Below are positions 17,761 through 59,049 of a DNA stretch of 64,000 bases, piece after piece. The notes below the pieces were generated by a model that made no database searches, had not been told where the DNA came from, and was given only the letters and a program-made list of their open reading frames with translations. Origin of the DNA: Rhodoferax sp. (GTDB lineage Bacteria; Pseudomonadota; Gammaproteobacteria; Burkholderiales; Burkholderiaceae_C); the NCBI GenBank assembly GCA_020048895.1, contig JAIFLV010000088.1:20182-84181 (forward strand), given 5' to 3'. Each line of letters begins with the position of its first letter. Positions within the stretch are counted from its first letter, which is position 1. The position numbers and the translations under genes are program-made.

Positions 17761-17823
17761 AATGCTATTGAATCAGGAGCTGCTTGCGCTTATCCAGTAA
17801 GCGCTGCAGCCCGATTTGGCATT
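17761..17823 (+). repeat. Twin-hairpin repeat family A copy between convergent gspC and ilvA
   Basis: AAATGCTATTGAATCAGGAGC (17760-17780) is identical to 54650-54670; hairpin GCGCTTA..TAAGCGC. Confidence 0.85.
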
Positions 17824-32284: not shown

Positions 32285-33232
32285 ATGAACCAACTCGACG
32301 CACTCAAACAATTCACCACGGTGGTGGCCGACACCGGCGACTTCAGGCAACTCGGGGCCTATCTGCCCCAGGACGCCACGACCAATCCTTCGCTGATTCT
32401 CAAGGCGGTACAAAAACCCGAATACGCGCCCCTGTTGCGCGATACCGTGGCCGCCTTTCGAGGCAGGCCACTCGATGAAATCATCGACCGCCTGCTGGTG
32501 CGTTTTGGCTGCGAGATTCTGTCCATCATTCCGGGGCGCGTGTCCACTGAGGTGGACGCTCGCTTGAGCTTCGATACCAGCGCTACTGTCACCCGTGCCG
32601 AGCGCATCATCGAGTTGTACCAGGCACAGGGCATTCACATCGATCGCGTGCTGATCAAGGTGGCTGCGACGTGGGAAGGCATCGAGGCCGCCAGGCAACT
32701 GGAGCGCAAGGGCATCCATACCAACCTGACGCTGCTCTTTTCTTTCTGCCAGGCGGTCGCGTGCGGGCAGGCCAAGGTGCAACTGATCTCGCCATTCGTG
32801 GGACGCATTTACGACTGGTACAAGAAGTCCGCTGGCGCGGGTTGGGTGGAAGCGGACCGCTCTGGCGCGAACGATCCCGGCGTGCAGTCGGTCACCCAGA
32901 TCTACCACTACTACAAGAAGTTTGGTATAGCCACCGAGGTGATGGGTGCGAGCTTTCGCAACGTGGGGCAAATTACGGCGCTGGCGGGCTGCGACCTGTT
33001 GACGATCAGCCCGGATCTGCTGGCAGCGCTGTCGGCAAGTGATGTGCCTCTGACCCGTGCACTCGACGCAGAGGCTGCGAAAGACATGGATCTCCAGCAC
33101 ATCGAGCTGGATGAGGCTGCGTTCCGGTTTGCACTCAACGAGGATGCGATGGCGACCGAGAAATTGGCCGAAGGCATCCGGGCGTTTTGTGTGGATGCTG
33201 TCAAATTGGAACAGCTATTGCTTGCAGCCTGA
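32285..33232 (+). CDS. tal: Transaldolase
   Basis: [48 protein letters not shown]. Confidence 0.97.
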
Positions 33233-33254
33233 AACATTTGATCGGGGGAACACC

Positions 33255-36198: not shown

Positions 36199-36830
36199 AC
36201 CTGGTATTTGATTTTGGCGCGGTCCTGTTCAAGTGGAAACCAGCCGAACTTCTGGCACAGACATTTGCGCAGGAAGCCAGTACACCGCAAGCGGCAGCGG
36301 CCATGGCGCATGCCCTGTTTGGGCACGCGGATTGGCACAGCTTTGACCGGGGCACAGTCGCCATGGATGATGTCGTGCAGCGCTCGGCCGCGCGGCTGGG
36401 GCTGGACGTGGCGCGGGTGGAGGCGCTGATGCAGCACATCGGTGGTCATCTGGCGCCGATCTCCGGCACCGTGAACCTGTTGCGACAGTTGCATGCCCAG
36501 CGGCTTGCTGGTGCCGATCTGAAACTTTATTACCTCTCCAATATGCCCGCGCCTTATGCGCGCCGCCTGCAGGAATTGCACGACTTCCTGCAGTGTTTTG
36601 ATGGCGGTGTGTTTTCGGGTGATGTGCACTGGATCAAACCCGAGCCGCAGATTTACCAGCTCCTGCAAAGTCGGTACGGATTGGAGCCTGCGCGCACGGT
36701 GTTTATCGATGACCTCAAACACAACGTGCACGCAGCCGAGCAGCAGGGTTGGAGCGGCATCCACTTTCAGTCGCCGGAACAACTGGAGCTGGAACTGGTC
36801 GCCAGAAATTTATATGAAAAGCGCCTGTGA
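36195..36830 (+). CDS. HAD family phosphatase
   Basis: LVFDFGAVL, YLSN, KPEPQIY, FIDD; 4-nt overlap with the upstream gene. Confidence 0.9.
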   Translation: MNLVFDFGAVLFKWKPAELLAQTFAQEASTPQAAAAMAHALFGHADWHSFDRGTVAMDDVVQRSAARLGLDVARVEALMQHIGGHLAPISGTVNLLRQLHAQRLAGADLKLYYLSNMPAPYARRLQELHDFLQCFDGGVFSGDVHWIKPEPQIYQLLQSRYGLEPARTVFIDDLKHNVHAAEQQGWSGIHFQSPEQLELELVARNLYEKRL

Positions 36831-36872
36831 CGCTTATCAGTAAAGCGTAGCCAGCTACTACTTTGATAGCGT
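36812..36872 (-). repeat. Repeat family A copy spanning the stops of two convergent genes
   Basis: Reverse complement ACGCTATCAAAGTAGTAGCTGGCTACGCTTTACTGATAAGCGTCACAGGCGC. Confidence 0.8.
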
Positions 36873-46134: not shown

Positions 46135-46195
46135 GTGCTACAAGAACGATAGCTGCTCACGCTTGTCTGGTGAGCAGTGGAGACATTTTTCGTGT
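46135..46195 (+). repeat. Repeat family A degenerate copy
   Basis: GTGCTACAAGAACGATAGCTGCTCACGCTTGTCTGGTGAGC: GCTA-N9-TAGC followed by a second hairpin. Confidence 0.6.
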
Positions 46196-47544: not shown

Positions 47545-48027
47545 ATGGAACGCATCACCATTTCAATAGACAAAGAACTCGCCGCTGAATTTGACCGCCT
47601 GATCGCCACGCGCGGTTACAAGAACCGCTCGGAGGCCGTGCGTGATCTGGTTCGCTCTCATCTGGAAGCAGATCGGCAGGATGCGGGACCGGCGGGACAC
47701 TGCGTCGCCAATCTGTCCTATGTCTACAACCATCATGAGCGTGATTTGGCCGAGCGTCTCACCGCTTTGCAACATGACCAGCACGACCTTACGGTTGCAA
47801 CCTTGCACGCCCACCTGGACCACGAAAACTGCATGGAAAGCGTGATTTTGCGGGGCCCCACCGCTTCTGTACGCAACTTTTCAGATGCCCTGATTTCGGA
47901 ACGTGGTGTGCGCCATGGGCAACTGAATCTGGTGTCCGCGGAGATCGCGGGGAGCGGCCACCATCACCACAGCCACGGCGCGCATGGCAAGAACCACACC
48001 CACATTCACCTCAAACCCAAGACCTGA
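47545..48027 (+). CDS. nikR: Nickel-responsive regulator NikR with His-rich tail
   Basis: MERITISID RHH, NRSEAVRDL, YVYNHH, HAHLDHENCME, GVRHG. Confidence 0.93.
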   Translation: MERITISIDKELAAEFDRLIATRGYKNRSEAVRDLVRSHLEADRQDAGPAGHCVANLSYVYNHHERDLAERLTALQHDQHDLTVATLHAHLDHENCMESVILRGPTASVRNFSDALISERGVRHGQLNLVSAEIAGSGHHHHSHGAHGKNHTHIHLKPKT

Positions 48028-48045
48028 TGGGCAGGGACCGGTAGC

Positions 48046-48780
48046 TCAAAGTCGTTGTCGACCCAGCGGTAGCTCCAAATGGCAGCGCTCCAAAAGGTCT
48101 TTGTCCGCAAAGATCGCGTCCGGCGAACCGTCCGCCTCAAGACGCCCGTGGTGCATGACAAGCACCCTTGAACAAACGTCCTCTACCAAGTCCAGATCAT
48201 GGGTTGCAATGATCTTGGTCAAATCCAATCCCATAAGCAAGTTGATCAGACGTCGACGAGCTGCCGGATCCAGGCAGTCACTGGGCTCGTCCATGACAAG
48301 TATGGAGGGGGACATTGCCAGGACGCCAGCGATGGCCACGGCACGCTTCTCTCCGCCAGATAGTCTGTAGGGCGGTCGCCCTGCCAAATGACTCGATCCC
48401 ACCGTCGCAAGAGCAGCCTCTACACGCGAGCGGACGTCCGCCAATGGCAGGCCCATGTTGGTCGGACCGAAAGCCACGTCGTCAAAGACCGTCGGCATGA
48501 ACAACTGGTCATCGGGGTCCTGGAAGACCAACCCCACGGTGCGCCGTACCTCAGCCAAGGTGCCAGCAGAAATCGCAGCATCATTCACCCGCACCTCGCC
48601 AGCGGTGGCTCTCAGCACACCGTTGAGATGCAGCAGGAGCGTCGATTTGCCAGCGCCGTTGCTGCCTATGATGCCGACCGATTCCCCTCGGCAAATGCCA
48701 AAGCTCACACCTTGCAAAGCCCTGCGTCCATCCGGGTAGGTGAAAGACAACTCTCGCGCTTGCAGTTGAAAGTGACTCAA
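48046..48780 (-). CDS. cbiO: ECF transporter ATPase (CbiO/NikO)
   Basis: GSNGAGKST, FQDPDDQLF, LSGGEK, DEP, ATHD. Confidence 0.92.
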   Translation of the reverse strand: MSHFQLQARELSFTYPDGRRALQGVSFGICRGESVGIIGSNGAGKSTLLLHLNGVLRATAGEVRVNDAAISAGTLAEVRRTVGLVFQDPDDQLFMPTVFDDVAFGPTNMGLPLADVRSRVEAALATVGSSHLAGRPPYRLSGGEKRAVAIAGVLAMSPSILVMDEPSDCLDPAARRRLINLLMGLDLTKIIATHDLDLVEDVCSRVLVMHHGRLEADGSPDAIFADKDLLERCHLELPLGRQRL

Positions 48781-49586
48781 GTGACCCGCCCCATCAAGGC
48801 TGCACCCAGCAGATGTGACAGATTAAAGTGGCGCGCGCCAATGCAGCCAGCCCAGCACGCAGCCAGAAACATCGAATCGGTTGTACGCCACAGCAACACC
48901 CGGTTAGAGCGCATTTCACCGCTGAATCCTCTGGATATCATGGCCTGATAGATGCGCTGGGAGCGGTCCATTGCCCGTAACAGCAGGTGGCCGAGCAAGG
49001 GCCCATAGACCGCCAGTGGCAATGACTTTGCGCCACCACGAAGCTCACGCGCCAGATTCATGCGGCCTACTTCACCTGCGAGCACCAAGGCATAGCGGTG
49101 CATGAACAATAGTTGGTTGGTAAGCACCTGCGGTACTCCCAGGCGGGCCAAGCCGACGCAGATCTGGTGAAACCCGGTTGTTGCCACCAGCACCAAGGCC
49201 GCACCCACTGTGAGCGCAAAGCGGACAAGGATGGAGGCAAACGATATCCAGCCCCCGGATACCGAGATCCCAAAGAGTTCAAGGACTATCTTGTGATCCA
49301 TCAAAGGGTTGAAGATGCCCACCATGATGGCAAACGGCGCCGCCGCCAAAATCTTTATCCAAATGGCCTTCAGTGGAACTTCGCCCAGAACTGCGATCAC
49401 CACTGGGAACAAGGCAAAAGGTAGCAAGGCAGCGACTGCATACCTGTCAAAGGACACCACGGTGATGATGAATCCCAGTGTGGCAAGAATCTTGGCCCGC
49501 GGGTCCAGTCCAGACAGGGCAGTTTGTCGCGTTGAAAAGGCGTCCAGTGACGCAAATTCATCGAGCGCAGATTGGATGCTGCTCAC
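48777..49586 (-). CDS. cbiQ: ECF transporter T component (CbiQ/NikQ)
   Basis: LDPRAKI, multiple TMs, RAMDRSQRIYQAMISRGF. Confidence 0.92.
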   Translation of the reverse strand: MSSIQSALDEFASLDAFSTRQTALSGLDPRAKILATLGFIITVVSFDRYAVAALLPFALFPVVIAVLGEVPLKAIWIKILAAAPFAIMVGIFNPLMDHKIVLELFGISVSGGWISFASILVRFALTVGAALVLVATTGFHQICVGLARLGVPQVLTNQLLFMHRYALVLAGEVGRMNLARELRGGAKSLPLAVYGPLLGHLLLRAMDRSQRIYQAMISRGFSGEMRSNRVLLWRTTDSMFLAACWAGCIGARHFNLSHLLGAALMGRVT

Positions 49587-49609
49587 AACGGCTTGTTATG
49601 AACCACGAA

Positions 49610-50689
49610 TCATCCAGGAGTACCTGCATCGACGTCGACCTTCCTGCGTCGACGCAATAGGTAGGCCACCAATGTGACGAGACTCAATGTTGCAAGCCCG
49701 CCAATAACACCTGCAAGCGAAGTCCCAGCATCGACCGCAGGCCATGCTTCACTTGTGGCTGATTTTTCTGGTTCTGGTGCTGTCTCCTTTACATCGGAGG
49801 AGAACTTGTAATCGGGAAATATTGTCAGACTCTTTTGAAACTCTTCCAGTCGCGTATGAACGGATTCTTTCGCCGCCAACTCAGCGCTTCCGGTGACACG
49901 TGCGATGCTCCACTCCAAACCATCGGGCTGCGATGAAGCGAACCAGGAGAATACCCCTGCCGTGAACAGTGCCAACACTCCCAGGCCAGCAATCAACTTT
50001 GCAGGGAACGTGGAAGACAAAGACGGCCCGCCCGCCGCTCTTTCATCAACAAACAGGTCAGGCCGGGCTTCTCGCACGAAGTGGATAAGTGCTGCCGTTG
50101 CGAGGCCCTCTACCAGCCCGATGGCAAGGTGTATCGGTTGCATGAGGAGCAAAAAGGTGCTCAGCGGCAAGCTACTGATTCCCGAGAATTGGGTCTGTGT
50201 CACCACACCCAGGGAACCCAGTTGCAGGCTGACGACCGTTGCAAGGACGGTGATGGCCGCCATGCGACGCTTCGACGCCAGCACCCCGGCGCGCTTGAGC
50301 AAGGGGCGATAGATCAGCGGCAGCCCGATGAAGCAGGGGAGCACACCCAGATTGAAGATATTGGCACCCAGAGCAAGCAGTCCACCATCGGCAAAGAACA
50401 ATGCCTGCACCGTCAGCACCGATGCAATGACAACAAAGGCCGCGTAGGGCCCCAACAATATGGATAACAGCAACCCGCCACCAATATGCCCGCTCGATCC
50501 CGTACCGGGAATCGTGAAGTTAATCATCATTGCGGCAAAGACGAATGCACCCAGCACGCCCATCAGTGGGACAAGGTAGTCCCGCGGGTCGCTGCGGACC
50601 TTTCTGGAAGAGATCGCCAATGCGGTACCGGTAGCTGTCCAAAAGGCGATTCCAACGGCAGGAGAGAGCAGGGCATCGGCCATGTGCAT
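49610..50689 (-). CDS. cbiM: ECF Ni/Co S component fused to a PDGLE (NikN-like) domain
   Basis: MHMADAL metal-binding N-terminus, GSSGHIGG, QALFFADGG, SQPDGLEWS. Confidence 0.9.
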   Translation of the reverse strand: MHMADALLSPAVGIAFWTATGTALAISSRKVRSDPRDYLVPLMGVLGAFVFAAMMINFTIPGTGSSGHIGGGLLLSILLGPYAAFVVIASVLTVQALFFADGGLLALGANIFNLGVLPCFIGLPLIYRPLLKRAGVLASKRRMAAITVLATVVSLQLGSLGVVTQTQFSGISSLPLSTFLLLMQPIHLAIGLVEGLATAALIHFVREARPDLFVDERAAGGPSLSSTFPAKLIAGLGVLALFTAGVFSWFASSQPDGLEWSIARVTGSAELAAKESVHTRLEEFQKSLTIFPDYKFSSDVKETAPEPEKSATSEAWPAVDAGTSLAGVIGGLATLSLVTLVAYLLRRRRKVDVDAGTPG

Positions 50690-50711
50690 TTTGGATTCCT
50701 TCCGGCAAATC

Positions 50712-50738
50712 GTATGAAGATTAAAAATATTGTATTAC
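50712..50738. promoter_or_regulatory. Candidate NikR operator
   Basis: GTATGA-N15(AT-rich)-TATTAC; the E. coli site is GTATGA-N16-TCATAC, so spacing is one base short. Confidence 0.45.
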
Positions 50739-50804
50739 TATTTGGTGGCCGAAAATTCCAGTCCTTGTCTGCAGGCCTCCTGCGAGGCTGACATAATGCG
50801 CACG

Positions 50805-51164
50805 ATGCAAACCCTGCGACGATTCACCATGCTCACGCGCCTCGTGCTGGCGTGGTTTGTGCTGTCGCTAGGCGTTGCTGTGGCCGCACCTGTCATCGCA
50901 CCACAACATATTCTTTTTGTTTGTACTGGCACGGGAGCCATGAAGGTGCTGACCCAGGTTGAGGATGGCAGCACTACGGAACAAGTTCATTCCAGGATGG
51001 ACTGCCCGCTGTGCGCGACAGTGTCGGCGCCACCACCGCAACCAGGCGTAGCGGTGCCACACCTTTGTGCTCTGTCATATGCCCTCCATGGCGTTCCTGT
51101 AGCTTTCATTGCAGCGCGTACTGCTTCGCCCATGCCGGCGCGCGGTCCACCCGCATTGTCCTGA
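50805..51164 (+). CDS. DUF2946 family (CruR-like) protein 1
   Basis: TM LVLAWFVLSLGVAVAAP, VCT, CPLC, C-terminal ARGPP. Confidence 0.88.
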   Translation: MQTLRRFTMLTRLVLAWFVLSLGVAVAAPVIAPQHILFVCTGTGAMKVLTQVEDGSTTEQVHSRMDCPLCATVSAPPPQPGVAVPHLCALSYALHGVPVAFIAARTASPMPARGPPALS

Positions 51165-51293
51165 ATCCGCTACGTATTTCGTAGCGTTCTGCGCCCATTC
51201 CATAGAGGAGTGGGCAGCATTTCGTTGATCGATCCGGCAGGTAGGTGTTCAACGCGAGTGCATTTCTCTGTCCACTTCTACGAACTTTCATCC

Positions 51294-51776
51294 ATGAAAT
51301 ACATTGCAAAACTCACATCCGTTATTGTTGTAGCCACCTTCTCCACGGTGGCCCTGGCCCAATCCGTAGACGTCAAAGACGCCTGGGCGCGCTCCACCGT
51401 GCAGGGGCAAAAGGCCACCGGTGCTTTCATGAAGCTCACCGCCAAGGAGGGCGCCAAGCTGGTGGGCGGCTCATCGCCCGCGGCAGGCGTGGTCGAAGTT
51501 CATGAAATGAAAATGGAAGGCGACGTCATGAAGATGCGTGCCGTCCCCGGCGGGCTCGATCTACCTGCAGGCAAGGCGGTGGAACTCAAGCCCGGCGGCT
51601 ACCACGTGATGCTGATGGACCTGAAAGCGCCGCTCATGAAAGACTCCACCGTTCCTCTAACCCTGGTGTTCAAGGACGCCAAAGGTGTGGAGAGCAAGGT
51701 CGAATTGAAGGTGCCTGTATCCACCGTGGCGCCAGGCCCAGCGATGCAGATGGACCACAGCCAGCACAAGATGTAA
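51294..51776 (+). CDS. Copper chaperone PCu(A)C
   Basis: Signal peptide, DAWAR, EVHEMKMEGDVMKM, LKPGGYHVML; Met/His C-terminal tail. Confidence 0.95.
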   Translation: MKYIAKLTSVIVVATFSTVALAQSVDVKDAWARSTVQGQKATGAFMKLTAKEGAKLVGGSSPAAGVVEVHEMKMEGDVMKMRAVPGGLDLPAGKAVELKPGGYHVMLMDLKAPLMKDSTVPLTLVFKDAKGVESKVELKVPVSTVAPGPAMQMDHSQHKM

Positions 51777-51905
51777 TTCCATTTCTAAATCATCCGTGTC
51801 GTTGTTGCTTGGCCTTGTCCACCCAAAGCATCTGAAGATGCTTTGGGACACGCCTCAGCACTGCGTGCGGCTTCGCGCCTAGACACAAATGATTTGGAAA
51901 CGGAA
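51777..51905. mobile_element. MITE-like 129-bp element
   Basis: 24-bp imperfect terminal inverted repeats (20/24), TAA on both flanks, internal perfect 11-bp hairpin CCCAAAGCATC-TGAA-GATGCTTTGGG. Confidence 0.6.
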
Positions 51906-51944
51906 TAAGTTGACCCCGCCCCTCAATCTCGGCCAGTCGCCCTC

Positions 51945-52355
51945 ATGCGCGGTTCCGTGATGCTGTCGTTGCCGTACCGACGTTGGTCGGTGTGGCTGGC
52001 TTTGTGCGTCGCTGTGTTCACGGCAATGGCGCCCACGCTCGCGCGAGCGTTTGCTGCCGCACAGAGCGGCTCGGGCCAGGGCTTTGAGATCTGTACGGCG
52101 CAGGGCTCGCGCTGGGTGGCCGTCAGTAGTGCGAACGCTTTGGTCGATTCCTCATCCGGGCAGGACTCCACGCCTTCACTTTCGCATTGCCCGTTTTGCC
52201 TGCTTAGCGCAGACCGCTGCGCCCCGCCTCCTTCAGCGGTTACCTACCGCTTCGTGTCCCAAGACGCACAACCGAATGCCAGCACAGGGCAGACTTTTGT
52301 CTACCTTGCGCAACCGTACACGCGCGCATCGCCCCGTGGACCTCCGATTTCCTGA
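51945..52355 (+). CDS. DUF2946 family (CruR-like) protein 2
   Basis: TM VWLALCVAVFTAMAP, EICTAQG, HCPFC, C-terminal PRGPP. Confidence 0.88.
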   Translation: MRGSVMLSLPYRRWSVWLALCVAVFTAMAPTLARAFAAAQSGSGQGFEICTAQGSRWVAVSSANALVDSSSGQDSTPSLSHCPFCLLSADRCAPPPSAVTYRFVSQDAQPNASTGQTFVYLAQPYTRASPRGPPIS

Positions 52356-52481
52356 ACTCCTAAGTTTGTAGCACTCTGCGCTTCCTACCCGGAGGCTGGA
52401 GGCCTTTTTGACCGCAAGGAAGTTGCCGTGTGCAGCAGCCCTTGCATCGCATTTTCAAATCTTCAAGTTCAGGATCATCCA

Positions 52482-53426
52482 ATGAAACAAGCATCCCTAC
52501 CTATCATCGCCTCCTTCAGCCTCGTTGCGGCAGCCGTTCTCACCGCATGCGGTGGCGGCGGCAGCGACGGCCCCCTGCCCGACAAGGTGGTGGCCATCAA
52601 CTTTGCAGCCGTCAATGGCAGCACACCCGTCAAGTGCGGAACCCAGCTCACCGGCATGGGCAGCACGGGAGTCGCAGCCGATGTAAAAGACCTGCGCTTC
52701 TACATCACCAACCTTGCCCTGGTGAATGACAAGGGCGTGGCCGTGCCGGTCAAGCTCGACGCCAGCAAGTGGCAACTGACGCAAGGCACCGAGACCGTCT
52801 CCCTGATTGATCTGGAAGACGCCACGGGTGCGTGCGCAACGGCTGCCAATACGGCTGAGACGAACGCCGTCATCACCGGCACTGTTCCGGGGGGCACTTA
52901 CGTCGGCCTGAAGGCCACCGTGGGCGTGCCCGAGGCCATGAACCACAGTGTTGCGGCCGGTGGTGTGCCACCGCTGGACAGCACCGCTTTGCTGTGGTCC
53001 TGGCAGACGGGGCGCAAGTTCACCAAGATCGAGATCAATCCGGTAGGCGGTTTGGTCAAACCCGATGGCACCAGCATTGCGACCTACAACCTGCACATCG
53101 GCTCCACCGGCTGCACACCCAAGCTGGACGCTGCCGGCGTTGCCATCCCCAATACGGGCACTTGCACCAATCTCAACATGGCCGATTTCAGCCTGGCTGC
53201 CTTCGATATGGCGACGCAGAAAGTGGCACTTGATCTGGGACAGTTGTTCAAGACCAGCAACCTGACCAAGGAAAATGGCGGGTCCCCGGGCTGCATGTCC
53301 GGCGCTACCGACCCGGAGTGCGCGGTCATCTTTACTGAACTGCAGGTCAGTTATGGCAGCGGTTCGGACGGTAAGCCGATCAACGGTGGCGCGGCGCAGA
53401 AGATCTTCAAGGCTGTTGCAAAGTGA
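52482..53426 (+). CDS. mbnP: MbnP family copper-binding lipoprotein
   Basis: Lipobox VLTAC, DLRFYITN, MNH, WSW motif (LLWSWQTG), H-IGSTGC, GCMS, six mature Cys; directly upstream of an MbnH-type gene. Confidence 0.88.
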   Translation: MKQASLPIIASFSLVAAAVLTACGGGGSDGPLPDKVVAINFAAVNGSTPVKCGTQLTGMGSTGVAADVKDLRFYITNLALVNDKGVAVPVKLDASKWQLTQGTETVSLIDLEDATGACATAANTAETNAVITGTVPGGTYVGLKATVGVPEAMNHSVAAGGVPPLDSTALLWSWQTGRKFTKIEINPVGGLVKPDGTSIATYNLHIGSTGCTPKLDAAGVAIPNTGTCTNLNMADFSLAAFDMATQKVALDLGQLFKTSNLTKENGGSPGCMSGATDPECAVIFTELQVSYGSGSDGKPINGGAAQKIFKAVAK

Positions 53427-54622
53427 TGCGAGCGCACCGTCAGCTGCCAACCAGACTGTCGGTGTCCGGCGCCCCGTCGTGGGCGCTGGTGACGGCCTTG
53501 GTCGGCGCTGTCGGATTGGCGGGGTGTGGCGGCGGGGCAGACAGCGCCGCCGCAACGGCAAGCGCTTGGGCATGGGCGCTACCACCGGGTTTTTCTGTGC
53601 CCGCCGTGCCAGCTGACAACCCTATGTCCACGGCCAAGGTGGACCTCGGGCGGTTCCTGTTCTATGACAAGCGCCTTTCGGGCAACGGCACCCTGGCCTG
53701 CTCCGGCTGTCACCTGCAGGAAAAGGCGTTCACCGATGGCTTGGCCGTGGCCAAAGGCTCCACAGGCGAGTTCACGCCCCGCAATTCGCAGTCTTTGGGT
53801 AACGTTGCTTACAGTCCGACCCTCACCTGGGCCAACCCGGGCCTGGTGTTGCTGGAGCGCCAGATGGAGGTGCCGCTGTTTGGCGAAAACGTGGTCGAGA
53901 TGGGAATCAACGACGGCAACAAGGCGGCCGTGTTGCAGCGCCTGGCAGATACCAGTCTCTACCCACCCAGGTTCGCGCAGGCATTTCCTGGTGAAGTCAA
54001 TCCCGTTTCGTGGGGCAATGCCATCAGGGCCATCGCCGCATTCCAGCGCTCGCTCATCAGTGGCAACAGCACGTACGACCAGGCTGTGGCCGGCAAAGCG
54101 GTTTTGAGCAGCGCAGAACAGCGCGGCCGGGATCTCTTCTTCGGCTCCAAGGCCGGTTGCTCGCAGTGCCACCACGGATTCAATTTCAACGACCAGGTGG
54201 TGGACGCTAATTCCCAGGCGGTTACGCGAGTGTTTCACAACATCGGCCTGTACAACGTCGGTGGTACCGGTGCCTATCCGGAGCCTAACCGTGGCGTGAT
54301 GGAGCTCAGTGGCCTGTTCAAGGACATGGGCGCTTTTCGGGCACCGAGCTTGCGCAACGTGGAAGTCACGGCTCCGTACATGCACGATGGCAGCATCGCT
54401 ACGCTGGAAGAAGTGATGGATGTGATTGCAGAAAGCGGGCGCAACATTACCAGTGGCGTCTATGCGGGCGATGGTCGCCGCAATCCGTACAAGAGTCCGC
54501 TGGTAACACCGCTCGCACTCACGGACCAGGACAAGTCGGATCTGATTGCGTTCCTGAAGACGCTGACAGACCTCGAGTTCCTGTCCAACCCCCAGCAGTC
54601 TGACCCGTTCAAGGTTTTGTGA
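53426..54622 (+). CDS. mbnH: MbnH family di-heme cytochrome c peroxidase/MauG-like enzyme
   Basis: LGRFLFYDKRLS, CSGCH and CSQCH heme motifs, FRAPSLRNV, APYMHDGS; TGATG overlap with mbnP. Confidence 0.92.
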   Translation: MRAHRQLPTRLSVSGAPSWALVTALVGAVGLAGCGGGADSAAATASAWAWALPPGFSVPAVPADNPMSTAKVDLGRFLFYDKRLSGNGTLACSGCHLQEKAFTDGLAVAKGSTGEFTPRNSQSLGNVAYSPTLTWANPGLVLLERQMEVPLFGENVVEMGINDGNKAAVLQRLADTSLYPPRFAQAFPGEVNPVSWGNAIRAIAAFQRSLISGNSTYDQAVAGKAVLSSAEQRGRDLFFGSKAGCSQCHHGFNFNDQVVDANSQAVTRVFHNIGLYNVGGTGAYPEPNRGVMELSGLFKDMGAFRAPSLRNVEVTAPYMHDGSIATLEEVMDVIAESGRNITSGVYAGDGRRNPYKSPLVTPLALTDQDKSDLIAFLKTLTDLEFLSNPQQSDPFKVL

Positions 54623-54650
54623 CGCTATGTGGGCTGCCAACAAAACGGGA

Positions 54651-54714
54651 AATGCTATTGAATCAGGAGCGCCTTACGCTTACTGGACGGGCGTTATAGG
54701 CATTATTTGTATTT
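54651..54714 (+). repeat. Repeat family A copy between mbnH and the Crp/Fnr gene
   Basis: 21-nt identity with the 17760 copy; ACGCTT..GGGCGT second hairpin. Confidence 0.85.
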
Positions 54715-54725
54715 AAGGAATTGCC

Positions 54726-55373
54726 ATGCAGAACCCAGTGAAAGAACCCATCCCCAATAGTGCGACACGTGTGCTTGCATCGCGCGAAAGCTTGCGGCCG
54801 GGGGAGCTAAAGCAACTTTGGCGACTGGAGGTGGGCGCGGTCCGTATCGACAGCGCGCCGCCGGGTGCGCCGACTCGCTTTGTCCGATTGGCCTTGCCCG
54901 GTGATGTGATTGGCGTGGAGCAGTGGGCGGGTACCGACGAAAGTCTGACCGTGCGCGCCCTCGTACCGACTTGCCTCACACCTTTGGACTCAAAAGGGTA
55001 CCAGGTGATGCAGATTCTGATGGAGTCGGTGGTGACCACCCACCAGCGTTGTGGTGAAGTGGTGAGCCTGCGTACTGGCACGGTGCCGCAACGGGTTAAA
55101 CGCCTTCTGTTGATGCTTGCCCCTGCGGGCCCGGATGTGGCGGGGCAGACCACAGAATGTCCCTTGCCGAACTTGAACGACATGTCCGATGTGCTGGACG
55201 CTGCGATAGAGACGGTGTCGCGTGTGCTGGCCAGCATGCGGCGCAACGACTACCTGCAGGAGCGCAAGCCACAGCGGGCACGCTTTAGCAGTCAGGTGCT
55301 GCGCGAGATTGAAATGGTGGTCGGGATGTCGAATTCGGCCACATCCCAACGTGTGGTCCGTTCGCTGGGATAG
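54726..55373 (+). CDS. Crp/Fnr-family regulator-like protein
   Basis: LWRLEVGAVRI, LALPGDVIG beta-roll; QRVKRLLL; IETVSRVL HTH. Confidence 0.8.
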   Translation: MQNPVKEPIPNSATRVLASRESLRPGELKQLWRLEVGAVRIDSAPPGAPTRFVRLALPGDVIGVEQWAGTDESLTVRALVPTCLTPLDSKGYQVMQILMESVVTTHQRCGEVVSLRTGTVPQRVKRLLLMLAPAGPDVAGQTTECPLPNLNDMSDVLDAAIETVSRVLASMRRNDYLQERKPQRARFSSQVLREIEMVVGMSNSATSQRVVRSLG

Positions 55374-55389: not shown

Positions 55390-56805
55390 TTACGGTCTGG
55401 AAATTATCTGCGATACCGGGTAGCCGCCCATCGTGCCGCGTCCCCGGTACCCGGTCATGCAGGTATCCCCCATCATGCCACCGGCAGCGCAGTCACCATA
55501 GGCCAGCAGGTTGATTTGCGCTGCGCTTAGCGGTGCTATAGGGTCCGAAAGTCTGACGTAAATGGTCATGAAACTGTTGCCAATGCCACCAGGCGCACCG
55601 GGGTGCTTGGCATTCGGCCAGCCGTAGTACAGCCCCTCCGAATTAGCTGCAAAGCCGCCTTCGGCAAAGGTGTTGATGGTGTTGAGGGCGAAGGTCGTTA
55701 CGAGCAGGCCACCTTGGCCGTCGCTGATCGCGGAGAGCTGGTGTGTCAGTGGCACCGTGGTCATGGGCGGCCCCGTCATCGATTCGGTGAGCGTTCCCTT
55801 CAAGTCAGAAACGCTGCCGGCGGTGGAGTTGACCACGAAGCTGCCGTTGAAAATAGTGTCATTGGGTTGGGTGTCGGGTTCAAAGAAAGTGGCTGCCACG
55901 TTGTACTGGGTGATCACCTCCGCCGGTGTGGACGGGTCGCCCTGGTCAACGCTGTTCGACGCCCGCACCGCAAACGCGTATCCGGTGCACGTTACAGGGC
56001 AAGGTACGGCAATTGGTGAGCTGCTGCCACTGGCTGTGATGCCAACCGGGTTGGACACCACGGTGTAGCCGGTGATGGGAGCGCCACCGCTGTTGGCGGG
56101 CCCGACAAAGCTGACCAACACGCTGTTTGCCAAATCCCCGGCAGTCGCCGCCACCCCGGTCGGTGCATCAGGCGCCGCGAGCGCAACCACCGGCACCGTG
56201 ACTGTGATGCTCTGCATCACTTGTGTTGCAGCCAGGTAGCTGGCATCACCGGGTTGGTTGGCGGTGATGGTACAGAGGCCTGCTGCAATGGCCGTGACAG
56301 CCCCCGTGTTTCCGACCACCGAACATACCTGCGGTGTGCTGGTGCCAAAGTGCACCGGCAAGCCGGAACTCGCAGTGGCTTTGACACTGGCGGTGCCATA
56401 CAGAGTCAATTCTGGGGGAGCAGCAAACAGAATCGTCTGCTTTGGGTCGACCAGTACAACCAGACTTTGAGTGGCTTGTGCCGCCGGAGCAAAGTCATCG
56501 TTGCCTTCCTGGTCGGCCGCCAGCATGCAGGTTCCTGCGATGAGTGCTGTCACTTTGCCGGTGTCACGCTGGACGCTGCAAACCGTGCCGGTCAGACTGG
56601 AGTAGGTCACGGCGAGGCCGGCGCTGGAGGTGGCGGCAACCGTGGCGGTCCCGTTCAGGGGCAGAACCGGTGTCGCGCCGAACTGTAGCGTCTGTGCCTG
56701 GGCTTTGATGGCGGGTCCGTCACCGCCACCACAGCCCGTTATCAGTACGGACAGCAAACTACCAGCCACAAAGGCAGATCGAACTCGAACAAGATGGGTC
56801 ATCAT
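55390..56805 (-). CDS. Lipoprotein: two Ig-like repeats, FN3, Met/Cys-rich C-terminal domain
   Basis: Lipobox LITGC; two repeats QTxxF...SGL.V.....VCSV...G.C...A.Q.G; APDAPTGVAA/GGAPITGYTV FN3; tip DCAAGGMMGDTCMTG...GTMGGYP. Confidence 0.85.
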   Translation of the reverse strand: MMTHLVRVRSAFVAGSLLSVLITGCGGGDGPAIKAQAQTLQFGATPVLPLNGTATVAATSSAGLAVTYSSLTGTVCSVQRDTGKVTALIAGTCMLAADQEGNDDFAPAAQATQSLVVLVDPKQTILFAAPPELTLYGTASVKATASSGLPVHFGTSTPQVCSVVGNTGAVTAIAAGLCTITANQPGDASYLAATQVMQSITVTVPVVALAAPDAPTGVAATAGDLANSVLVSFVGPANSGGAPITGYTVVSNPVGITASGSSSPIAVPCPVTCTGYAFAVRASNSVDQGDPSTPAEVITQYNVAATFFEPDTQPNDTIFNGSFVVNSTAGSVSDLKGTLTESMTGPPMTTVPLTHQLSAISDGQGGLLVTTFALNTINTFAEGGFAANSEGLYYGWPNAKHPGAPGGIGNSFMTIYVRLSDPIAPLSAAQINLLAYGDCAAGGMMGDTCMTGYRGRGTMGGYPVSQIISRP

Positions 56806-56814
56806 GCGAACGTC

Positions 56815-59049
56815 CTAAAAGCGCATGCTTAAAGCGAGGTGGATCGAGCGCCCCATGCCCGGCACGGTCGTGCCCCAGGGAATGCCGGTGCTGGTCATCG
56901 AGGCGCCTTGGCCAAGGTAGGCGCCACCCAGCGGCGGTGTGTAGTTGCGGTTGAGCAGGTTCTCGACACCTATATCCAGCCGTGTTTGTTGCCACTGGAC
57001 GCTGCTGCGCCAGTGGACGAGGCCATAACCTGCCGTGGGTATCTCGTTGCGAACGCGTGAGACGTCGGTCTTGGCTGCTACGAGTTGCACTTCGGCGGTG
57101 TTGGTCCAGTCGCCCCAGGTTTGCATGACTGCCAACTTGGCATTGAGCGGCATGATGTTGTAAAGATGGTCACCTGTGCTGCGATTCTCACCGCGGACAT
57201 AGCTCAGCGTGCCGGTTGCCTTGAAACTGCCAGTATCCGCCGTGGCACCCAGGTGCGCCTGGCCCGACAGATCAAAACCGACCAGGCGTGCCATGTGATT
57301 CACATACTGCAGATTGACGAAACCGCTGCTGGCCGTGAGGTTGGCGGTGCCGCCGCATTGCCCGAAATTGCAGCGCTGTGCATCGATGAAATCCTGCACC
57401 TCTGTGATATGGCCTTTCGCCTGCACGCCCCACACGGTCTGGTCGGCATCGTGCCAGTCAGCGCTGACGCTCAGCGTGTGTGCGACTTCCGGTGTCAGGT
57501 CAATGTTGCCGATGTAGCCGTTGCCGTCGCCCACAAAATTGTTCATGAGCGATGCCATGGGCTGTGTGGACCAGGCGTAGCGCTGGTAGAGATTCGGCGA
57601 GTGGGACTTGCGCGCAAAGCCCGCGTCAAAGCTGGCACTGGCTTGTGGCACGTAACGCATCAAGGCAGTGAAGTCCAGATTGTGGTCCGTGCGAACTCGA
57701 TCCAGAGCGTTGAATGCCGCTGCATCACTGGCCCAGATGGCCTGCGCGTTGTAACCCTGGACTGGCCCGGTGTTGGTGCTGACGGTCTCATGCCGGAGTC
57801 CGAGCTGCGTGCGCCATTGGGTGTCCCACAGCGCCTCCCATTCCGCAAACAGTCCGGCCCGGTCGCGCGTGCCGTAGTCCATATTCCAGAATGTTCTAGG
57901 CCCCATGACACCGCCCGCCTGCGGCCACCAGTCGTACAGCGAATAGTTCAGCGCTTCAGCACCAACCCGAATGGTTGTCCGGTCAGACCAGGCAATGTCG
58001 GCCTGGGCCAGTGCCCCTCGGGTCTTGGCCTTGGTGTTCATCGGCATGCCCAGCGTGCCGTAGGAGAACCTGTCTGGCCCCATGTTCATAAAGTGCTCAG
58101 TGTCTTGCCCGTAAGTGCGCGCCTGTAGGCCGCCCCAGGGGAACTTGCCGGTGTAGCGCAGGTTGGCCTGCGTACTGTCATTGCCCGTCATGTCCATGCG
58201 CTGGTTGGGGAAGCCTTCAAACGGAAGGCGTTGGCTGCCCACGTTGAGCTGCAGCAAGTGCCCATCGTTGTGGACCGCCAACGCGATATCCTGGTTCTTT
58301 GCCGTGTAGGCGCTGGAGCCCACCTCGTTACCTGCAAGCCATGCGCCGCCTGATGTACCAGGCCCAGCGGCCTTGAAATCACCACCAGCCAGGTAATTGG
58401 ACGTCTGTGCGCTGGAAGATCGGTAGCCTATATGAATGTTCTGGCTGGCGTAGGTCGCACCCAGGTTGAAACCCCAGGCCCGACCATTGCTGCGGTAAAA
58501 GGTGCCCGCCTCGCCCTGGGTCAGCCTCGCGTCGGCTCTATCTGCGAACTCGGGGGGCGCCGATTGCACCTGGATCGTGCCGCCAATGCTGTCCCCACCT
58601 ACGCTCACGGGCGTGATGCCGGCAAAGACGGAAATGCTACCGACCCGGCTGGGGTCGATGTACGAAAGCGGCGAGTTCATGTGGTTGGGGCAAGCCGCCA
58701 TCAGGTCCATGCCATCGACCTGAATGCGCAGACGGTCATCGGCCAGGCCATGAATCACCGGCAGACTGGAGACGCCTCCGGCACCATACAGGCTCACGCC
58801 GGGCACGTCCTGCAATAGTTGGGCCGTGTCACTGGTAGCGGCGCGCCGGGAGATCAACGCGTCCTTGCCCACCAGAGTGCTTCCGAGGGGTAGGGAGGGC
58901 AATCGGGTGCCTGTGATGACCACTTCGCCCAGGTGCGATGGCGACTGGGCATGCACCCCGCTGGAAGCCACTGCCACAGCCCATGCAAGACTGTTTAGCA
59001 TCGGAGTGGTCAACGTGGCCAAGCGTCGCGAAATGCACGTGGTTTTCAT
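56815..59049 (-). CDS. TonB-dependent receptor, OprC-like copper motif
   Basis: TonB box EVVITG, plug ACPNHM (CxxxM), GVENLLNRNY, C-terminal F; Met-rich loops. Confidence 0.93.
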   Translation of the reverse strand: MKTTCISRRLATLTTPMLNSLAWAVAVASSGVHAQSPSHLGEVVITGTRLPSLPLGSTLVGKDALISRRAATSDTAQLLQDVPGVSLYGAGGVSSLPVIHGLADDRLRIQVDGMDLMAACPNHMNSPLSYIDPSRVGSISVFAGITPVSVGGDSIGGTIQVQSAPPEFADRADARLTQGEAGTFYRSNGRAWGFNLGATYASQNIHIGYRSSSAQTSNYLAGGDFKAAGPGTSGGAWLAGNEVGSSAYTAKNQDIALAVHNDGHLLQLNVGSQRLPFEGFPNQRMDMTGNDSTQANLRYTGKFPWGGLQARTYGQDTEHFMNMGPDRFSYGTLGMPMNTKAKTRGALAQADIAWSDRTTIRVGAEALNYSLYDWWPQAGGVMGPRTFWNMDYGTRDRAGLFAEWEALWDTQWRTQLGLRHETVSTNTGPVQGYNAQAIWASDAAAFNALDRVRTDHNLDFTALMRYVPQASASFDAGFARKSHSPNLYQRYAWSTQPMASLMNNFVGDGNGYIGNIDLTPEVAHTLSVSADWHDADQTVWGVQAKGHITEVQDFIDAQRCNFGQCGGTANLTASSGFVNLQYVNHMARLVGFDLSGQAHLGATADTGSFKATGTLSYVRGENRSTGDHLYNIMPLNAKLAVMQTWGDWTNTAEVQLVAAKTDVSRVRNEIPTAGYGLVHWRSSVQWQQTRLDIGVENLLNRNYTPPLGGAYLGQGASMTSTGIPWGTTVPGMGRSIHLALSMRF

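What the first reader, a model, noticed from the sequence alone, without database searches (positions are those of the whole stretch)
50805..52481. Two serial CruR-like ribosome-arrest leaders, each gating a different copper gene set
Seen: two DUF2946 genes, each with an N-terminal TM, CxxC (CPLC, CPFC) and terminal RGPP, lie 129 nt before PCuAC and 126 nt before mbnP; the first spacer has hairpins and no obvious SD. Known: Bordetella CruR (DUF2946, CxxC plus RAPP) is a copper-responsive upstream ORF controlling a downstream TonB transporter, and RAPP/RGPP are arrest motifs. Inference: a two-stage post-transcriptional copper sensor controlling a chaperone and MbnPH rather than a transporter.
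Basis: partly seen in the sequence, partly recalled or inferred. Interest (0 to 1): 0.7.

Follow-up and report, generated by a model that had tools for sequence, protein, structure and literature searches.

The report
Two copper-sensing arrest-peptide leaders in series
Two small CruR-like genes that probably stall their own ribosome sit in series ahead of copper genes (PCuAC, then MbnP/MbnH); the kind is already published, but the series layout and an RNA helix hiding the mbnP ribosome-binding site are new detail.

Summary
Two DUF2946-type ORFs lie at 50796-51164 and 51945-52355. Each has an N-terminal hydrophobic segment, a CxxC motif (CPLC, CPFC) and RGPP two or three residues before the stop. 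They lie 129 nt before PCuAC and 126 nt before mbnP. RGPP and the CxxC-RGPP spacing are nearly invariant in homologues.

The class is already known. Roy 2022 (CruR) lists PCuAC and MbnPH-like genes behind DUF2946 leaders. Fujiwara 2025 lists RGPP leaders before PCu(A)C.

New here:
- **Recurrent module.** Leader1-PCuAC-leader2-cargo recurs in Comamonadaceae, with only 18-55 nt between PCuAC and leader 2. The second leader is therefore normally an internal gate within one operon. In this window a 131-nt multi-copy palindromic repeat has been inserted at that junction.
- **Spacer hairpins.** They are copies of a dispersed two-hairpin repeat, fixed 0-6 nt after leader stop codons.
[quoted passage not shown] This holds for 80/153 leaders against 11/133 control junctions, with compensatory changes. 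In the window it masks the mbnP SD (probability about 1). It is absent before PCuAC.

Copper response, arrest and Rho dependence are inferred, not shown.

The parts
50796..51164 (+). Leader 1: a DUF2946-like arrest-leader ORF of 122 aa. The alternative start is 50805. CPLC is at 51003-51014 and RGPP at 51141-51152, followed by ALS and TGA.
   Evidence: PF11162, 22 bits, E = 2.9e-4. One search found 613 homologues. Searches show the motif and spacing conserved. One search gives hhalign 95% against the leader-2 family.
50972..51205 (+). C>G (rut-like) stretch in the 3' half of leader 1, with C/G of 1.2-1.5.
   Evidence: The last 150 nt of all 100 leader-1-type ORFs have C>G, with a mean C/G of 1.53 against 1.00 in the rest of the ORF.
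51165..51293 (+). Spacer 1. HP1 is 51169-51174/51180-51185 and HP2 is 51190-51219; together they are a degenerate copy of the dispersed two-hairpin repeat. There is no SD before the PCuAC ATG and no anti-SD:SD helix.
   Evidence: folds. (covariance model, 19.3 bits, E = 0.01). (nhmmer, E = 0.003). (tail:TIR pairing 0).
51294..51776 (+). PCuAC periplasmic copper chaperone gene, the cargo of gate 1.
   Evidence: PF04314, 129 bits.
51776..51906 (.). A 131-nt nested palindromic multi-copy repeat (MITE/REPIN-like) inserted between PCuAC and leader 2. It has 25-nt terminal inverted repeats and an inner perfect 12-bp hairpin at 51822-51847.
   Evidence: z = -4.2.. (depth 57-650 against about 6-7 in the flanks; contigs break at 51772-51776 and 51906-51909). 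(relatives have 18-55 nt at this junction).
51945..52355 (+). Leader 2: a DUF2946 arrest-leader ORF of 136 aa. CPFC is at 52188-52199 and RGPP at 52335-52346, followed by IS and TGA. The CxxC-RGPP spacing is 45, as in CruR.
   Evidence: 47.1 bits..
52116..52400 (+). C>G (rut-like) stretch in the 3' half of leader 2, with C/G of 1.4-2.1.
52350..52358 (+). Anti-SD segment (UCC UGA ACU): the last sense codon, the stop and 3 further nt of leader 2. It lies +9 to +17 from the first base of the predicted P-site codon of an RGPP-arrested ribosome.
   Evidence: pairs with 52466-52474 at probability 0.92-1.0. The family-wide helix is shown.
52356..52412 (+). A copy of the dispersed two-hairpin repeat inside spacer 2. 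The full-length leader-junction model matches 52336-52433.
   Evidence: 40.7 bits, E = 3.6e-8, model positions 1-101..
52466..52474 (+). The mbnP Shine-Dalgarno region (AGUUCAGGA), sequestered by the leader-2 stop region.
   Evidence: The ATG 52482 start is supported by the homologues' MK... lipoprotein signal peptides.
52482..53426 (+). mbnP, an MbnP-family copper-binding lipoprotein and cargo of gate 2.
   Evidence: TIGR04052, 244 bits against a cut-off of 140.
53423..54622 (+). mbnH, a MauG-like di-haem enzyme whose start overlaps the end of mbnP.
   Evidence: TIGR04039, 468 bits against a cut-off of 363.

Best explanation
**What it is.** These are two paralogous, cis-acting, CruR-type copper-sensing arrest leaders in one copper-acquisition gene cluster.

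**How each leader is proposed to work.**
1. Each leader is translated as a short exported peptide, and the ribosome arrests with the two Pro codons of RGPP in the P and A sites. This step is inferred from CruR toeprinting.
2. While the ribosome is arrested it covers the C-rich, rut-like 3' half of the leader and its last codons. Rho is kept off and the downstream genes are expressed.
3. By analogy with CruR, copper bound by the nascent CxxC relieves the arrest. The ribosome then terminates and downstream expression falls. The genes would therefore be ON under copper limitation and OFF with copper.

**The added layer at gate 2.** The last sense codon and stop of leader 2 (52350-52358) are complementary to the mbnP Shine-Dalgarno region (52466-52474). 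An arrested ribosome would hold this anti-SD inside its mRNA channel and leave the SD free. After release the helix closes over a two-hairpin repeat and masks the SD.

**Gate 1.** The junction before PCuAC has the hairpins but no such helix and no SD. Only the Rho-type layer is plausible there.

**The series layout.** In relatives the order is leader1-(cargo)-PCuAC-leader2-cargo2 with a tight PCuAC-leader2 junction. Cargo 2 therefore has to pass two gates. In this window a mobile repeat has been inserted at that junction.

**Shown versus inferred.** Shown: the sequence features, their conservation, the synteny and the RNA pairing statistics. Inferred: the arrest, copper sensing and its polarity, Rho involvement and co-transcription.
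For: **Homology and motifs.**
- Pfam assigns both ORFs to DUF2946, leader 1 just under the cut-off.
- RGPP is kept in 119/120 leader-1 homologues and RGPP or RAPP in 20/23 leader-2 homologues. Spacing is fixed at 42-43 and 45-46 residues.
- The C-terminal IAARTAxPxPARGPP is nearly invariant.
- The two subfamilies are homologous.

**Published function of relatives.**
- CruR needs CxxC, RAPP and their spacing. Copper relieves the arrest and causes Rho termination. The family heads operons with PCuAC and MbnPH-like genes (PMC9426467).
- CruR arrest was shown by toeprint, and RGPP is equivalent to RAPP (PMC12992588).

**Rut-like bias.** C/G is about 1.5 in the last 150 nt of all 164 leaders, against 1.0-1.1 in the rest of the leader and 1.04 in control genes.

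**Synteny.** 57 of 63 PCuAC-to-leader-2 gaps are 55 nt or less, while leader-to-cargo spacers are 71-366 nt.

**Anti-SD helix.**
- RNAalifold picks only this helix.
- On the model-fitted alignment 19 of 20 pairs show compensatory change, 74.9% of cells are paired against 36-44% in slid controls, and 0 of 500 shuffles reach the observed values.
- Tail:TIR pairing of 4 bp or more occurs in 80/153 leaders against 11/133 control junctions. The means are 4.61 against 0.98, and 2.11 after shuffling the tail.
- In the window the pairing probability is about 1.0.
- Full-length model matches occur almost only at leader junctions; the few others are low-scoring.
Against: - There is no expression, Ribo-seq or copper-response data for this organism. 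The RNA runs found hold only 4-7% of sampled words.
- Leader 1 is below the Pfam cut-off, and its spacing of 42 lies outside the 45 +/- 2 reported for CruR.
- Gate 1 has neither an SD nor an anti-SD helix, so its translational control is unexplained.
- Part of the tail:SD complementarity follows from composition: tail-shuffled controls still give 2.1 bp.
- The covariation alignment was fitted to the model.
- The C>G bias partly follows from Pro/Ala-rich coding.
- The hairpins belong to a dispersed repeat found elsewhere in the genome, so they could be passengers.
- The 131-nt insert may uncouple leader 2 from leader 1 in this genome.
- No promoter or terminator consensus was found anywhere in the region.
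Confidence: 0.55

Rival explanations
1. Pure CruR mechanism. Both leaders act only through Rho-dependent transcription attenuation. The stop-region:SD complementarity and the hairpins would be by-products of codon choice and of a selfish repeat, with no role in translation.
For: - This is the only mechanism shown experimentally for the closest characterised relative (PMC9426467).
- All leaders carry the C>G stretch.
- Gate 1 in the window lacks the helix.
- Tail shuffles retain some pairing.
- The repeat core occurs at non-leader sites.
Against: - The helix has compensatory changes in all 8 of its pairs.
- It is 6.5-fold enriched over other gene junctions.
- The repeat is fixed at -2 to +6 nt after the stop in 79 of the 89 leaders that carry it within 150 nt downstream.
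- Full-length matches are almost all at leader junctions.
Confidence: 0.2
2. CutF-type polarity. Periplasmic copper binding to the exported nascent leader induces the arrest rather than relieving it. The ribosome then melts the SD-masking helix, so the downstream genes would be switched ON by copper.
For: - The SD-shielding helix with an anti-SD is the hallmark of cutF-cutO (PMC9973294; bioRxiv 10.1101/2025.02.05.636593).
- Both leaders have export-type N-termini.
Against: - The motifs are CxxC plus RGPP with CruR spacing, not CutF's CxxxC plus PPP.
- The cargo is of the copper-acquisition or copper-delivery type: PCuAC, MbnPH and, in relatives, TonB-dependent transporters. It is not a detoxifying oxidase.
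- Roy 2022 cites a Bradyrhizobium japonicum cytochrome-oxidase-biogenesis operon headed by a cruR homologue that is induced by copper starvation.
Confidence: 0.12
3. The two DUF2946 proteins are mature periplasmic or membrane copper-binding proteins. They would work in trans with PCuAC and MbnP, for example as chaperones, and would not be regulators.
For: - Leader 1 is conserved over its whole length (74% mean column identity), including a CTGxGAMKVL block.
- DUF2946 is cofit with a copper TonB receptor in Pseudomonas (bioRxiv 10.1101/072470).
- CutF was first proposed to be a chaperone.
Against: - CruR and CutF act only in cis and are barely detectable as proteins.
- Bacterial proteomes avoid RGPP except in arrest peptides.
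- The long structured spacers and the fixed geometry at the stop codon have no explanation under a purely trans-acting role.
Confidence: 0.1
4. The leaders are not in series in this genome. The 131-nt repeat insert terminates or processes the transcript after PCuAC, and leader 2-mbnPH is an independent unit with its own promoter.
For: - The 168-nt gap is an outlier against the 18-55 nt seen in relatives.
- The insert forms a very stable structure (-67.7 kcal/mol for the 191-nt stretch holding it, z = -4.2).
Against: - No U-tract follows the hairpin, and neither a terminator nor a promoter consensus was found.
- REP-like inserts inside operons are commonly transcribed through.
Confidence: 0.3

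Closest known systems
CruR (Bp2923) of Bordetella pertussis, the DUF2946 copper-responsive upstream ORF (Roy et al. 2022, PMC9426467)
   Same: - It is a small exported DUF2946 protein with an invariant CxxC and an R-x-P-P motif 2-3 residues from the end.
- The motif spacing is 45 residues, as in leader 2.
- It has a C>G 3' half and a long structured spacer to a copper gene.
- The family is already reported upstream of PCuAC and MbnPH-like genes.
   Different: - The motif here is RGPP, not RAPP.
- Leader 1 has 42-43 spacing and falls just under the Pfam cut-off.
- Leader 2 is an internal gene, not the first gene of the operon.
- A stop-codon anti-SD helix masks the next gene's SD, which is not described for cruR-bfrG.
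- The cargo here is not a TonB-dependent transporter.
CutF of Rhodobacter capsulatus (Ozturk et al. 2023, PMC9973294; 2025 preprint 10.1101/2025.02.05.636593)
   Same: It is a DUF2946-like exported leader acting in cis, and an mRNA helix with an anti-SD shields the SD of the next gene until a stalled ribosome opens it.
   Different: - CutF has CxxxC and a PPP motif and depends on EF-P.
- Copper induces its stalling.
- Its cargo is the detoxifying oxidase CutO.
- Its anti-SD lies in an intergenic stem-loop. Here the anti-SD is the leader's own last codon plus stop.
RAPP/RGPP arrest peptides: SecM, ApdA, ApdP and the Streptomyces lividans set (Fujiwara et al. 2024, 2025; PMC10987492, PMC12992588)
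   Same: They carry a C-terminal RGPP/RAPP core in a small secretory or membrane protein upstream of the regulated gene. The 2025 survey already lists PCu(A)C, YcnI, TonB receptors and PepSY as downstream classes.
   Different: Those studied in detail monitor Sec/YidC. The copper class was surveyed only by annotation, and no tandem arrangement or RNA element was described in the text I read.
REP/BIME- and MITE-type intergenic repeats
   Same: The two-hairpin, roughly 60-nt element is dispersed, co-oriented with genes and sits in intercistronic spacers. The 131-nt nested palindrome is multi-copy and has terminal inverted repeats.
   Different: At leader junctions the two-hairpin element is fixed 0-6 nt after the stop and is enclosed by a covarying anti-SD:SD helix. 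This suggests it has been retained or co-opted. No Rfam family matches it.

Membership tests
CruR / DUF2946 copper-responsive arrest leaders | Match to Pfam PF11162 (DUF2946) | tested here: met
   Leader 2 scores 47.1 bits against a cut-off of 23.7, covering profile positions 1-117.
CruR / DUF2946 copper-responsive arrest leaders | Match to Pfam PF11162 (DUF2946), leader 1 | tested here: inconclusive
   Leader 1 scores 22.0 bits, E = 2.9e-4, just under the 23.7 cut-off. Many of its homologues carry PF11162. Its family profile aligns to the leader-2 family at 95% probability.
CruR / DUF2946 copper-responsive arrest leaders | Invariant CxxC motif | tested here: met
   CPLC and CPFC are present. 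The two Cys are invariant in alignments A1 and A2.
CruR / DUF2946 copper-responsive arrest leaders | [quoted passage not shown] | tested here: met
   RGPP+3 in leader 1 and RGPP+2 in leader 2. RGPP is kept in 119/120 leader-1 homologues and RGPP or RAPP in 20/23 leader-2 homologues. RGPP is a published equivalent arrest core.
CruR / DUF2946 copper-responsive arrest leaders | CxxC-to-RxPP spacing of 45 residues, within one or two | tested here: met
   Leader 2 has 45, and its subfamily has 45-46.
CruR / DUF2946 copper-responsive arrest leaders | CxxC-to-RxPP spacing of 45 residues, within one or two (leader 1) | tested here: not met
   Leader 1 has 42, and its subfamily has 42-43. The value is a conserved variant, not decay.
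CruR / DUF2946 copper-responsive arrest leaders | N-terminal export signal or Nin-Cout transmembrane segment | tested here: inconclusive
   Read directly from the sequence: a basic N-region followed by about 20 hydrophobic residues in both leaders. No signal-peptide predictor was available.
CruR / DUF2946 copper-responsive arrest leaders | First gene of a copper-related operon, with a long spacer to the next gene | tested here: met
   Leader 1 has a divergent cbiM upstream and a 129-nt spacer to PCuAC. Leader 2 has the long spacer (126 nt) but follows PCuAC, so it is not the first gene.
CruR / DUF2946 copper-responsive arrest leaders | C>G (rut-like) region in the leader | tested here: met
CruR / DUF2946 copper-responsive arrest leaders | Ribosome arrest at the motif, relief by copper, and Rho-dependent termination before the next gene | not testable with these tools
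   This needs toeprinting, reporter fusions and bicyclomycin. No usable RNA data were found.
CutF-type DUF2946 leaders | CxxxC copper motif and a C-terminal PPP stalling motif | tested here: not met
   The leaders have CxxC and RGPP.
CutF-type DUF2946 leaders | mRNA helix with an anti-SD that shields the SD of the next gene | tested here: met
   Leader 2 to mbnP: 9 bp at probability about 1.0. The family-wide helix shows covariation. It is not met at leader 1 to PCuAC.
Sec/YidC-monitoring RAPP arrest peptides (SecM, ApdA, ApdP) | Encoded upstream of a protein-localisation gene | tested here: not met
   The downstream genes are PCuAC and MbnP/MbnH.

The most novel reading that the evidence does not exclude
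DUF2946 arrest leaders of this clade would be translational gates as well as Rho attenuators. The leader's own last codon and stop would form a conserved anti-SD. An RGPP-arrested ribosome would hide this anti-SD, and a co-opted dispersed two-hairpin repeat would hold it next to the cargo's SD. Two paralogous leaders with different CxxC-RGPP spacing (42 and 45), placed in series in one operon, would then give a two-threshold response to copper starvation: the chaperone first, then costly uptake by a TonB-dependent transporter or MbnPH.
Probability: 0.25. Interest if true: 0.65.

Novelty: new variant of a known kind. Interest (0 to 1): 0.45.

Why it matters
Copper is the one transition metal for which no riboswitch is known. 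Nascent-peptide sensors such as CruR and CutF seem to fill that role, and only two have been studied.

This locus and its relatives would matter in three ways:
- **Stacked sensors.** They show that such sensors can be stacked inside one operon.
- **A link between the two published mechanisms.** CruR-type motifs here occur together with a CutF-type SD mask. The mask geometry is simple and testable, because the anti-SD sits inside the footprint of the arrested ribosome.
- **A repeat turned structural.** A dispersed repeat may have been retained as the structural core of the switch.

The locus also gives the copper regulation of MbnP/MbnH outside methanotrophs a concrete candidate mechanism.

Tried and rejected
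- **Rfam.** A search of 50600-52600 at E up to 1 found nothing.
- **Promoter and terminator consensus.** The scan of 50400-55000 found no promoter, and terminator-like sites were at the chance level.
- **RNA-seq.** Only metatranscriptomes holding 4-7% of sampled words were found, so none was usable.
- **A third leader before the TonB receptor at 56815-59049 (- strand).** No other real ORF in the window ends with R[AG]PP.
- **A longer PCuAC ORF starting at GTG 51210.** Rejected. The upstream frame is not open in L005 or L080, the signal peptide starts at ATG 51294, and the GGA abuts the GTG.
- **GTG 52428 as the mbnP start.** Rejected. All homologues start at an ATG giving MK... followed by a lipoprotein signal peptide. 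The GTG and its AAGGAAG may be a second, weaker partner for the anti-SD.
- **Deletion of a PCuAC-like gene between leader 2 and mbnP, as present in L143, L147, L152 and L153.** No residual DNA similarity was found in the spacer, so this cannot be shown.
- **Stop-codon read-through.** Both spacers (129 and 126 nt) are in frame and open, but this is not conserved in relatives, so it is treated as coincidence.
- **The repeat-like match at 33559-33613.** It lies inside the pgi coding sequence and is set aside as probable chance or a relic.
Full report
**1. Observation**

The region holds two small ORFs exactly as described.

- Leader 1 runs 50796-51164 and encodes 122 aa. It carries CPLC at 51003-51014 and RGPP at 51141-51152, and it ends ...ARGPPALS.
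- Leader 2 runs 51945-52355 and encodes 136 aa. It carries CPFC at 52188-52199 and RGPP at 52335-52346, and it ends ...PRGPPIS.
- Both begin with a basic stretch followed by about 20 hydrophobic residues.
- Pfam assigns leader 2 to DUF2946 at 47.1 bits against a cut-off of 23.7. Leader 1 scores 22.0 bits, just under that cut-off.
- PCuAC (51294-51776) follows leader 1 after 129 nt.
- MbnP (52482-53426) follows leader 2 after 126 nt. MbnH (53423-54622) overlaps the end of mbnP.
- MbnP and MbnH pass NCBIfam's equivalog cut-offs.
- No other real ORF in the window ends with an R[AG]PP motif.

**2. The motifs are not chance**

- Leader 1 has 613 database homologues and leader 2 has 23.
- RGPP is present in 119 of the 120 listed leader-1 homologues. 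RGPP or RAPP is present in 20 of the 23 leader-2 homologues. The motif is always 2-6 residues from the end.
- The CxxC-to-RGPP distance is fixed at 42-43 residues in the leader-1 subfamily and 45-46 in the leader-2 subfamily.
- The last 15 residues of the leader-1 subfamily, IAARTAxPxPARGPP, are almost invariant. This is what an arrest peptide lodged in the exit tunnel would predict.
- The two subfamilies are homologous: hhalign gives 95% probability and E = 3.3e-8, with CxxC and RGPP aligned.

**3. What is already known**

- Roy et al. 2022 (PMC9426467) showed that Bordetella pertussis CruR is a DUF2946 upstream ORF with three functional features:
  - CxxC, RAPP (three residues from the end) and their 45-residue spacing are all needed.
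  - Copper relieves the arrest and triggers Rho-dependent termination before the TonB-dependent transporter gene.
  - The rut site maps to a C>G region inside cruR.
- The same paper states that cruR homologues head operons containing PCuAC, ScoC, YcnI, CopC and MbnPH-like genes, with long intergenic distances.
- Fujiwara et al. 2025 (PMC12992588) showed CruR arrest by toeprint, with the two Pro codons in the P and A sites. They showed that RGPP is an arrest core equivalent to RAPP. They listed TonB receptors, YcnI, PCu(A)C and PepSY genes downstream of RAPP/RGPP small proteins.
- Ozturk et al. (PMC9973294 and a 2025 preprint) showed that CutF, a DUF2946-like leader with CxxxC and PPP, stalls when copper is present. 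The stalled ribosome melts a stem-loop whose anti-SD shields the cutO SD.
- The class, and its association with PCuAC and MbnPH, are therefore already published.

**4. The series arrangement is recurrent**

I fetched 79 genome loci around leader-1 relatives, from Acidovorax, Rhodoferax, Hylemonella and other Comamonadaceae. I also fetched 79 metagenome loci around leader-2 relatives.

- Most Acidovorax loci have leader1-TBDT-YcnI-like-PCuAC (TBDT = TonB-dependent transporter).
- A Rhodoferax-like group has leader1-TBDT-x-x-PCuAC-leader2-TBDT2, or leader1-PCuAC-leader2-cargo.
- The cargo is a TBDT, or a PCuAC-like gene followed by MbnP-MbnH-Crp-TBDT, or other genes.
- Leader-to-cargo spacers are long: 94-366 nt after leader 1, and mostly 71-150 nt after leader 2.
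- The PCuAC-to-leader-2 gap is 55 nt or less in 57 of 63 junctions.
- Among 39 distinct leader-2 loci with enough upstream sequence, 29 have PCuAC upstream and 16 show the full leader-PCuAC-leader2 module within 1.5 kb.
- Among 55 leader-1 genomes with enough downstream sequence, 7 have a second leader.
- The leader-2 subfamily is thus typically an internal leader in an operon headed by a leader-1-type gene. This supports 'serial'.

**5. This window is an outlier at that junction**

- The gap here is 168 nt. Positions 51776-51906 form a 131-nt nested palindrome with 25-nt terminal inverted repeats and an inner perfect 12-bp hairpin.
- The 191-nt stretch that holds it folds with z = -4.2.
- In four metagenomes that hold this sequence, this segment has a depth of 57-650 against about 6-7 for its flanks. 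Many contigs match only this segment and then run into unrelated DNA exactly at its ends.
- It is therefore a multi-copy, mobile-type repeat inserted between PCuAC and leader 2.
- No U-tract follows its hairpin, and no promoter or terminator consensus was found.
- Whether it uncouples the two units is open.

**6. The spacer hairpins are a dispersed repeat at a fixed place**

- An element of about 60 nt starts -2 to +6 nt after the stop codon of many leaders. It consists of HP1 (GCUAU...AUAGC), HP2 (GCGCyy...rrGCGC) and then GGCCnAUUU.
- 89 of 187 leaders carry the element within 150 nt downstream. In 79 of those it starts in that 9-nt window.
- It is not private to leaders. The window has further copies at 11684-11737(-), 17764-17819(+), 36816-36870(-), 46140-46192(+) and 54654-54703(+). 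The last lies between mbnH and the crp-like gene.
- The fetched loci hold 82 non-leader copies, of which 67 are co-oriented with the operon.
- Rfam has no match.
- A covariance model covering leader tail, core, SD and start gives full-length matches almost only at leader junctions. The few others are low-scoring, and most other sites match only the core.
- In the window the model scores 40.7 bits on spacer 2 and 19.3 bits on spacer 1.

**7. A conserved anti-SD at the leader's stop codon**

- On 38 aligned junctions RNAalifold predicts a single consensus helix. It joins the leader's last codons and stop (typically UCUCCUGA) to the cargo's SD (UCAGGAG).
- With HP1 and HP2 added, 74% of cells are paired, against about 40% when the partners are slid.
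- On the model-fitted alignment of 106 distinct junctions and repeat copies, four results stand out:
  - 19 of 20 pairs show changes on both sides.
  - All 8 pairs of the anti-SD:SD helix show such changes; for example, one pair reads C-G in 59 sequences and U-A in 16.
  - 74.9% of cells are paired, against 36-44% in slid controls.
  - None of 500 shuffles reaches the observed values.
  - That alignment leans towards the model, so these figures are supportive, not proof.
- An alignment-free test gives the same answer:

| Set | Junctions with 4 bp or more of tail:TIR pairing | Mean expected bp |
|---|---|---|
| Distinct leaders | 80 of 153 | 4.61 |
| Other same-strand junctions in the same loci | 11 of 133 | 0.98 |
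| Leaders with the 14-nt tail shuffled | not comparable | 2.11 |

Here the tail is the leader's last 11 nt plus the next 3 nt, and the TIR is the -18 to -2 region before the next long ORF. Pairing is the expected number of base pairs in the thermodynamic ensemble.

**8. The window's own gates**

*Gate 2.*
- Positions 52350-52358 (UCC UGA ACU) pair with 52466-52474 (AGUUCAGGA, which contains the mbnP SD) at probability 0.92-1.0.
- ATG 52482 is the true mbnP start, judged from the homologues' MK... lipoprotein signal peptides.
- If the ribosome arrests with CCU 52341-52343 in the P site, as in CruR, the anti-SD lies at +9 to +17. That is inside or at the edge of the ribosome's mRNA channel. Arrest would therefore free the SD, and release would let the helix close.
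- A weaker alternative partner, AAGGAAG before GTG 52428, is the one the covariance model aligns.

*Gate 1.*
- HP1 and HP2 are present, and HP1's stem extends into the stop codon.
- There is no SD before the PCuAC ATG and no tail:TIR pairing, either in the window or in its closest relatives.
- Only a Rho-type layer is plausible there.

*Both leaders.*
- Each has a C>G 3' half: 50972-51205 with C/G of 1.2-1.5, and 52116-52400 with C/G of 1.4-2.1.
- Every one of 164 leaders has C>G in its last 150 nt. The mean C/G is about 1.5, against 1.0-1.1 in the rest of the ORF and 1.04 in control genes.
- Pro/Ala-rich coding contributes to this bias.

**9. Most likely mechanism**

- These are cis-acting, CruR-type nascent-peptide copper sensors.
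- Arrest at RGPP keeps Rho off and, at gate 2, holds the anti-SD away from the mbnP SD.
- Copper bound by CxxC relieves the arrest and shuts the downstream genes off.
- The polarity (ON when copper is scarce) is inferred from two things. One is the CruR-type motifs and spacing. The other is the acquisition-type cargo: PCuAC, MbnPH and, in relatives, TBDTs.
- Rivals are set out in the Rival explanations section: Rho-only control, CutF polarity, a trans-acting copper-protein role, and independent transcription units in this genome.

**10. Verdict**

- What is new relative to the texts I could read is threefold:
  - the recurrent internal second leader;
  - the stop-codon anti-SD helix built around a dispersed repeat;
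  - the mobile-repeat insertion in this genome.
- All functional steps remain inferred.

Noticed in passing
51776-51906: A 131-nt nested palindrome with 25-nt terminal inverted repeats is a multi-copy mobile-type repeat. Its metagenome depth is 57-650 against about 6-7 for the flanks, and contigs break exactly at its ends. Relatives have only 18-55 nt at this junction.
   Followed up: yes
11684-11737(-), 17764-17819(+), 36816-36870(-), 46140-46192(+), 54654-54703(+), weaker 7482-7552(-): Further copies of the roughly 60-nt two-hairpin intergenic repeat (GCTAT..ATAGC, GCGCyy..rrGCGC, GGCCnATTT) that also follows the leaders. In the fetched loci the copies are mostly co-oriented with genes, and there is no Rfam family. 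The conserved (A/G)TAGC head recalls the GTAG head of REP elements.
   Followed up: partly
33559-33613 (-): A good match to the same repeat (nhmmer E = 3.7e-8) lies inside the pgi coding sequence (33057-34823, + strand). It may be chance or a relic, and it remains unexplained.
   Followed up: no
51162-51296 and 52353-52484: Both leader stop codons (TGA) are in frame with the downstream start, and neither spacer (129 nt and 126 nt) contains a further stop. This is not conserved in relatives (128-nt spacers in L005 and L080), so it is probably coincidence.
   Followed up: partly
54726-55373: A Crp/FixK-like regulator (weak matches to LdrP and FixK) follows mbnH. It is syntenic with MbnPH in loci L147, L152 and L153, and in L155 a Crp-like gene precedes them. 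It may be a transcriptional partner of the cluster.
   Followed up: no
55390-59049 (-): A convergent pair: a TonB-dependent receptor (best weak match is the copper-receptor family TIGR01778) and a 471-aa protein with Ig-like/fn3 domains. The pair is syntenic in L001 and L081, and it has no DUF2946 leader of its own.
   Followed up: partly
47545-50689: A NikR-like regulator and a cbiMNQO-type Ni/Co transporter operon lie divergent from leader 1. The same cbiM neighbour is present in L001, L005 and L080.
   Followed up: no
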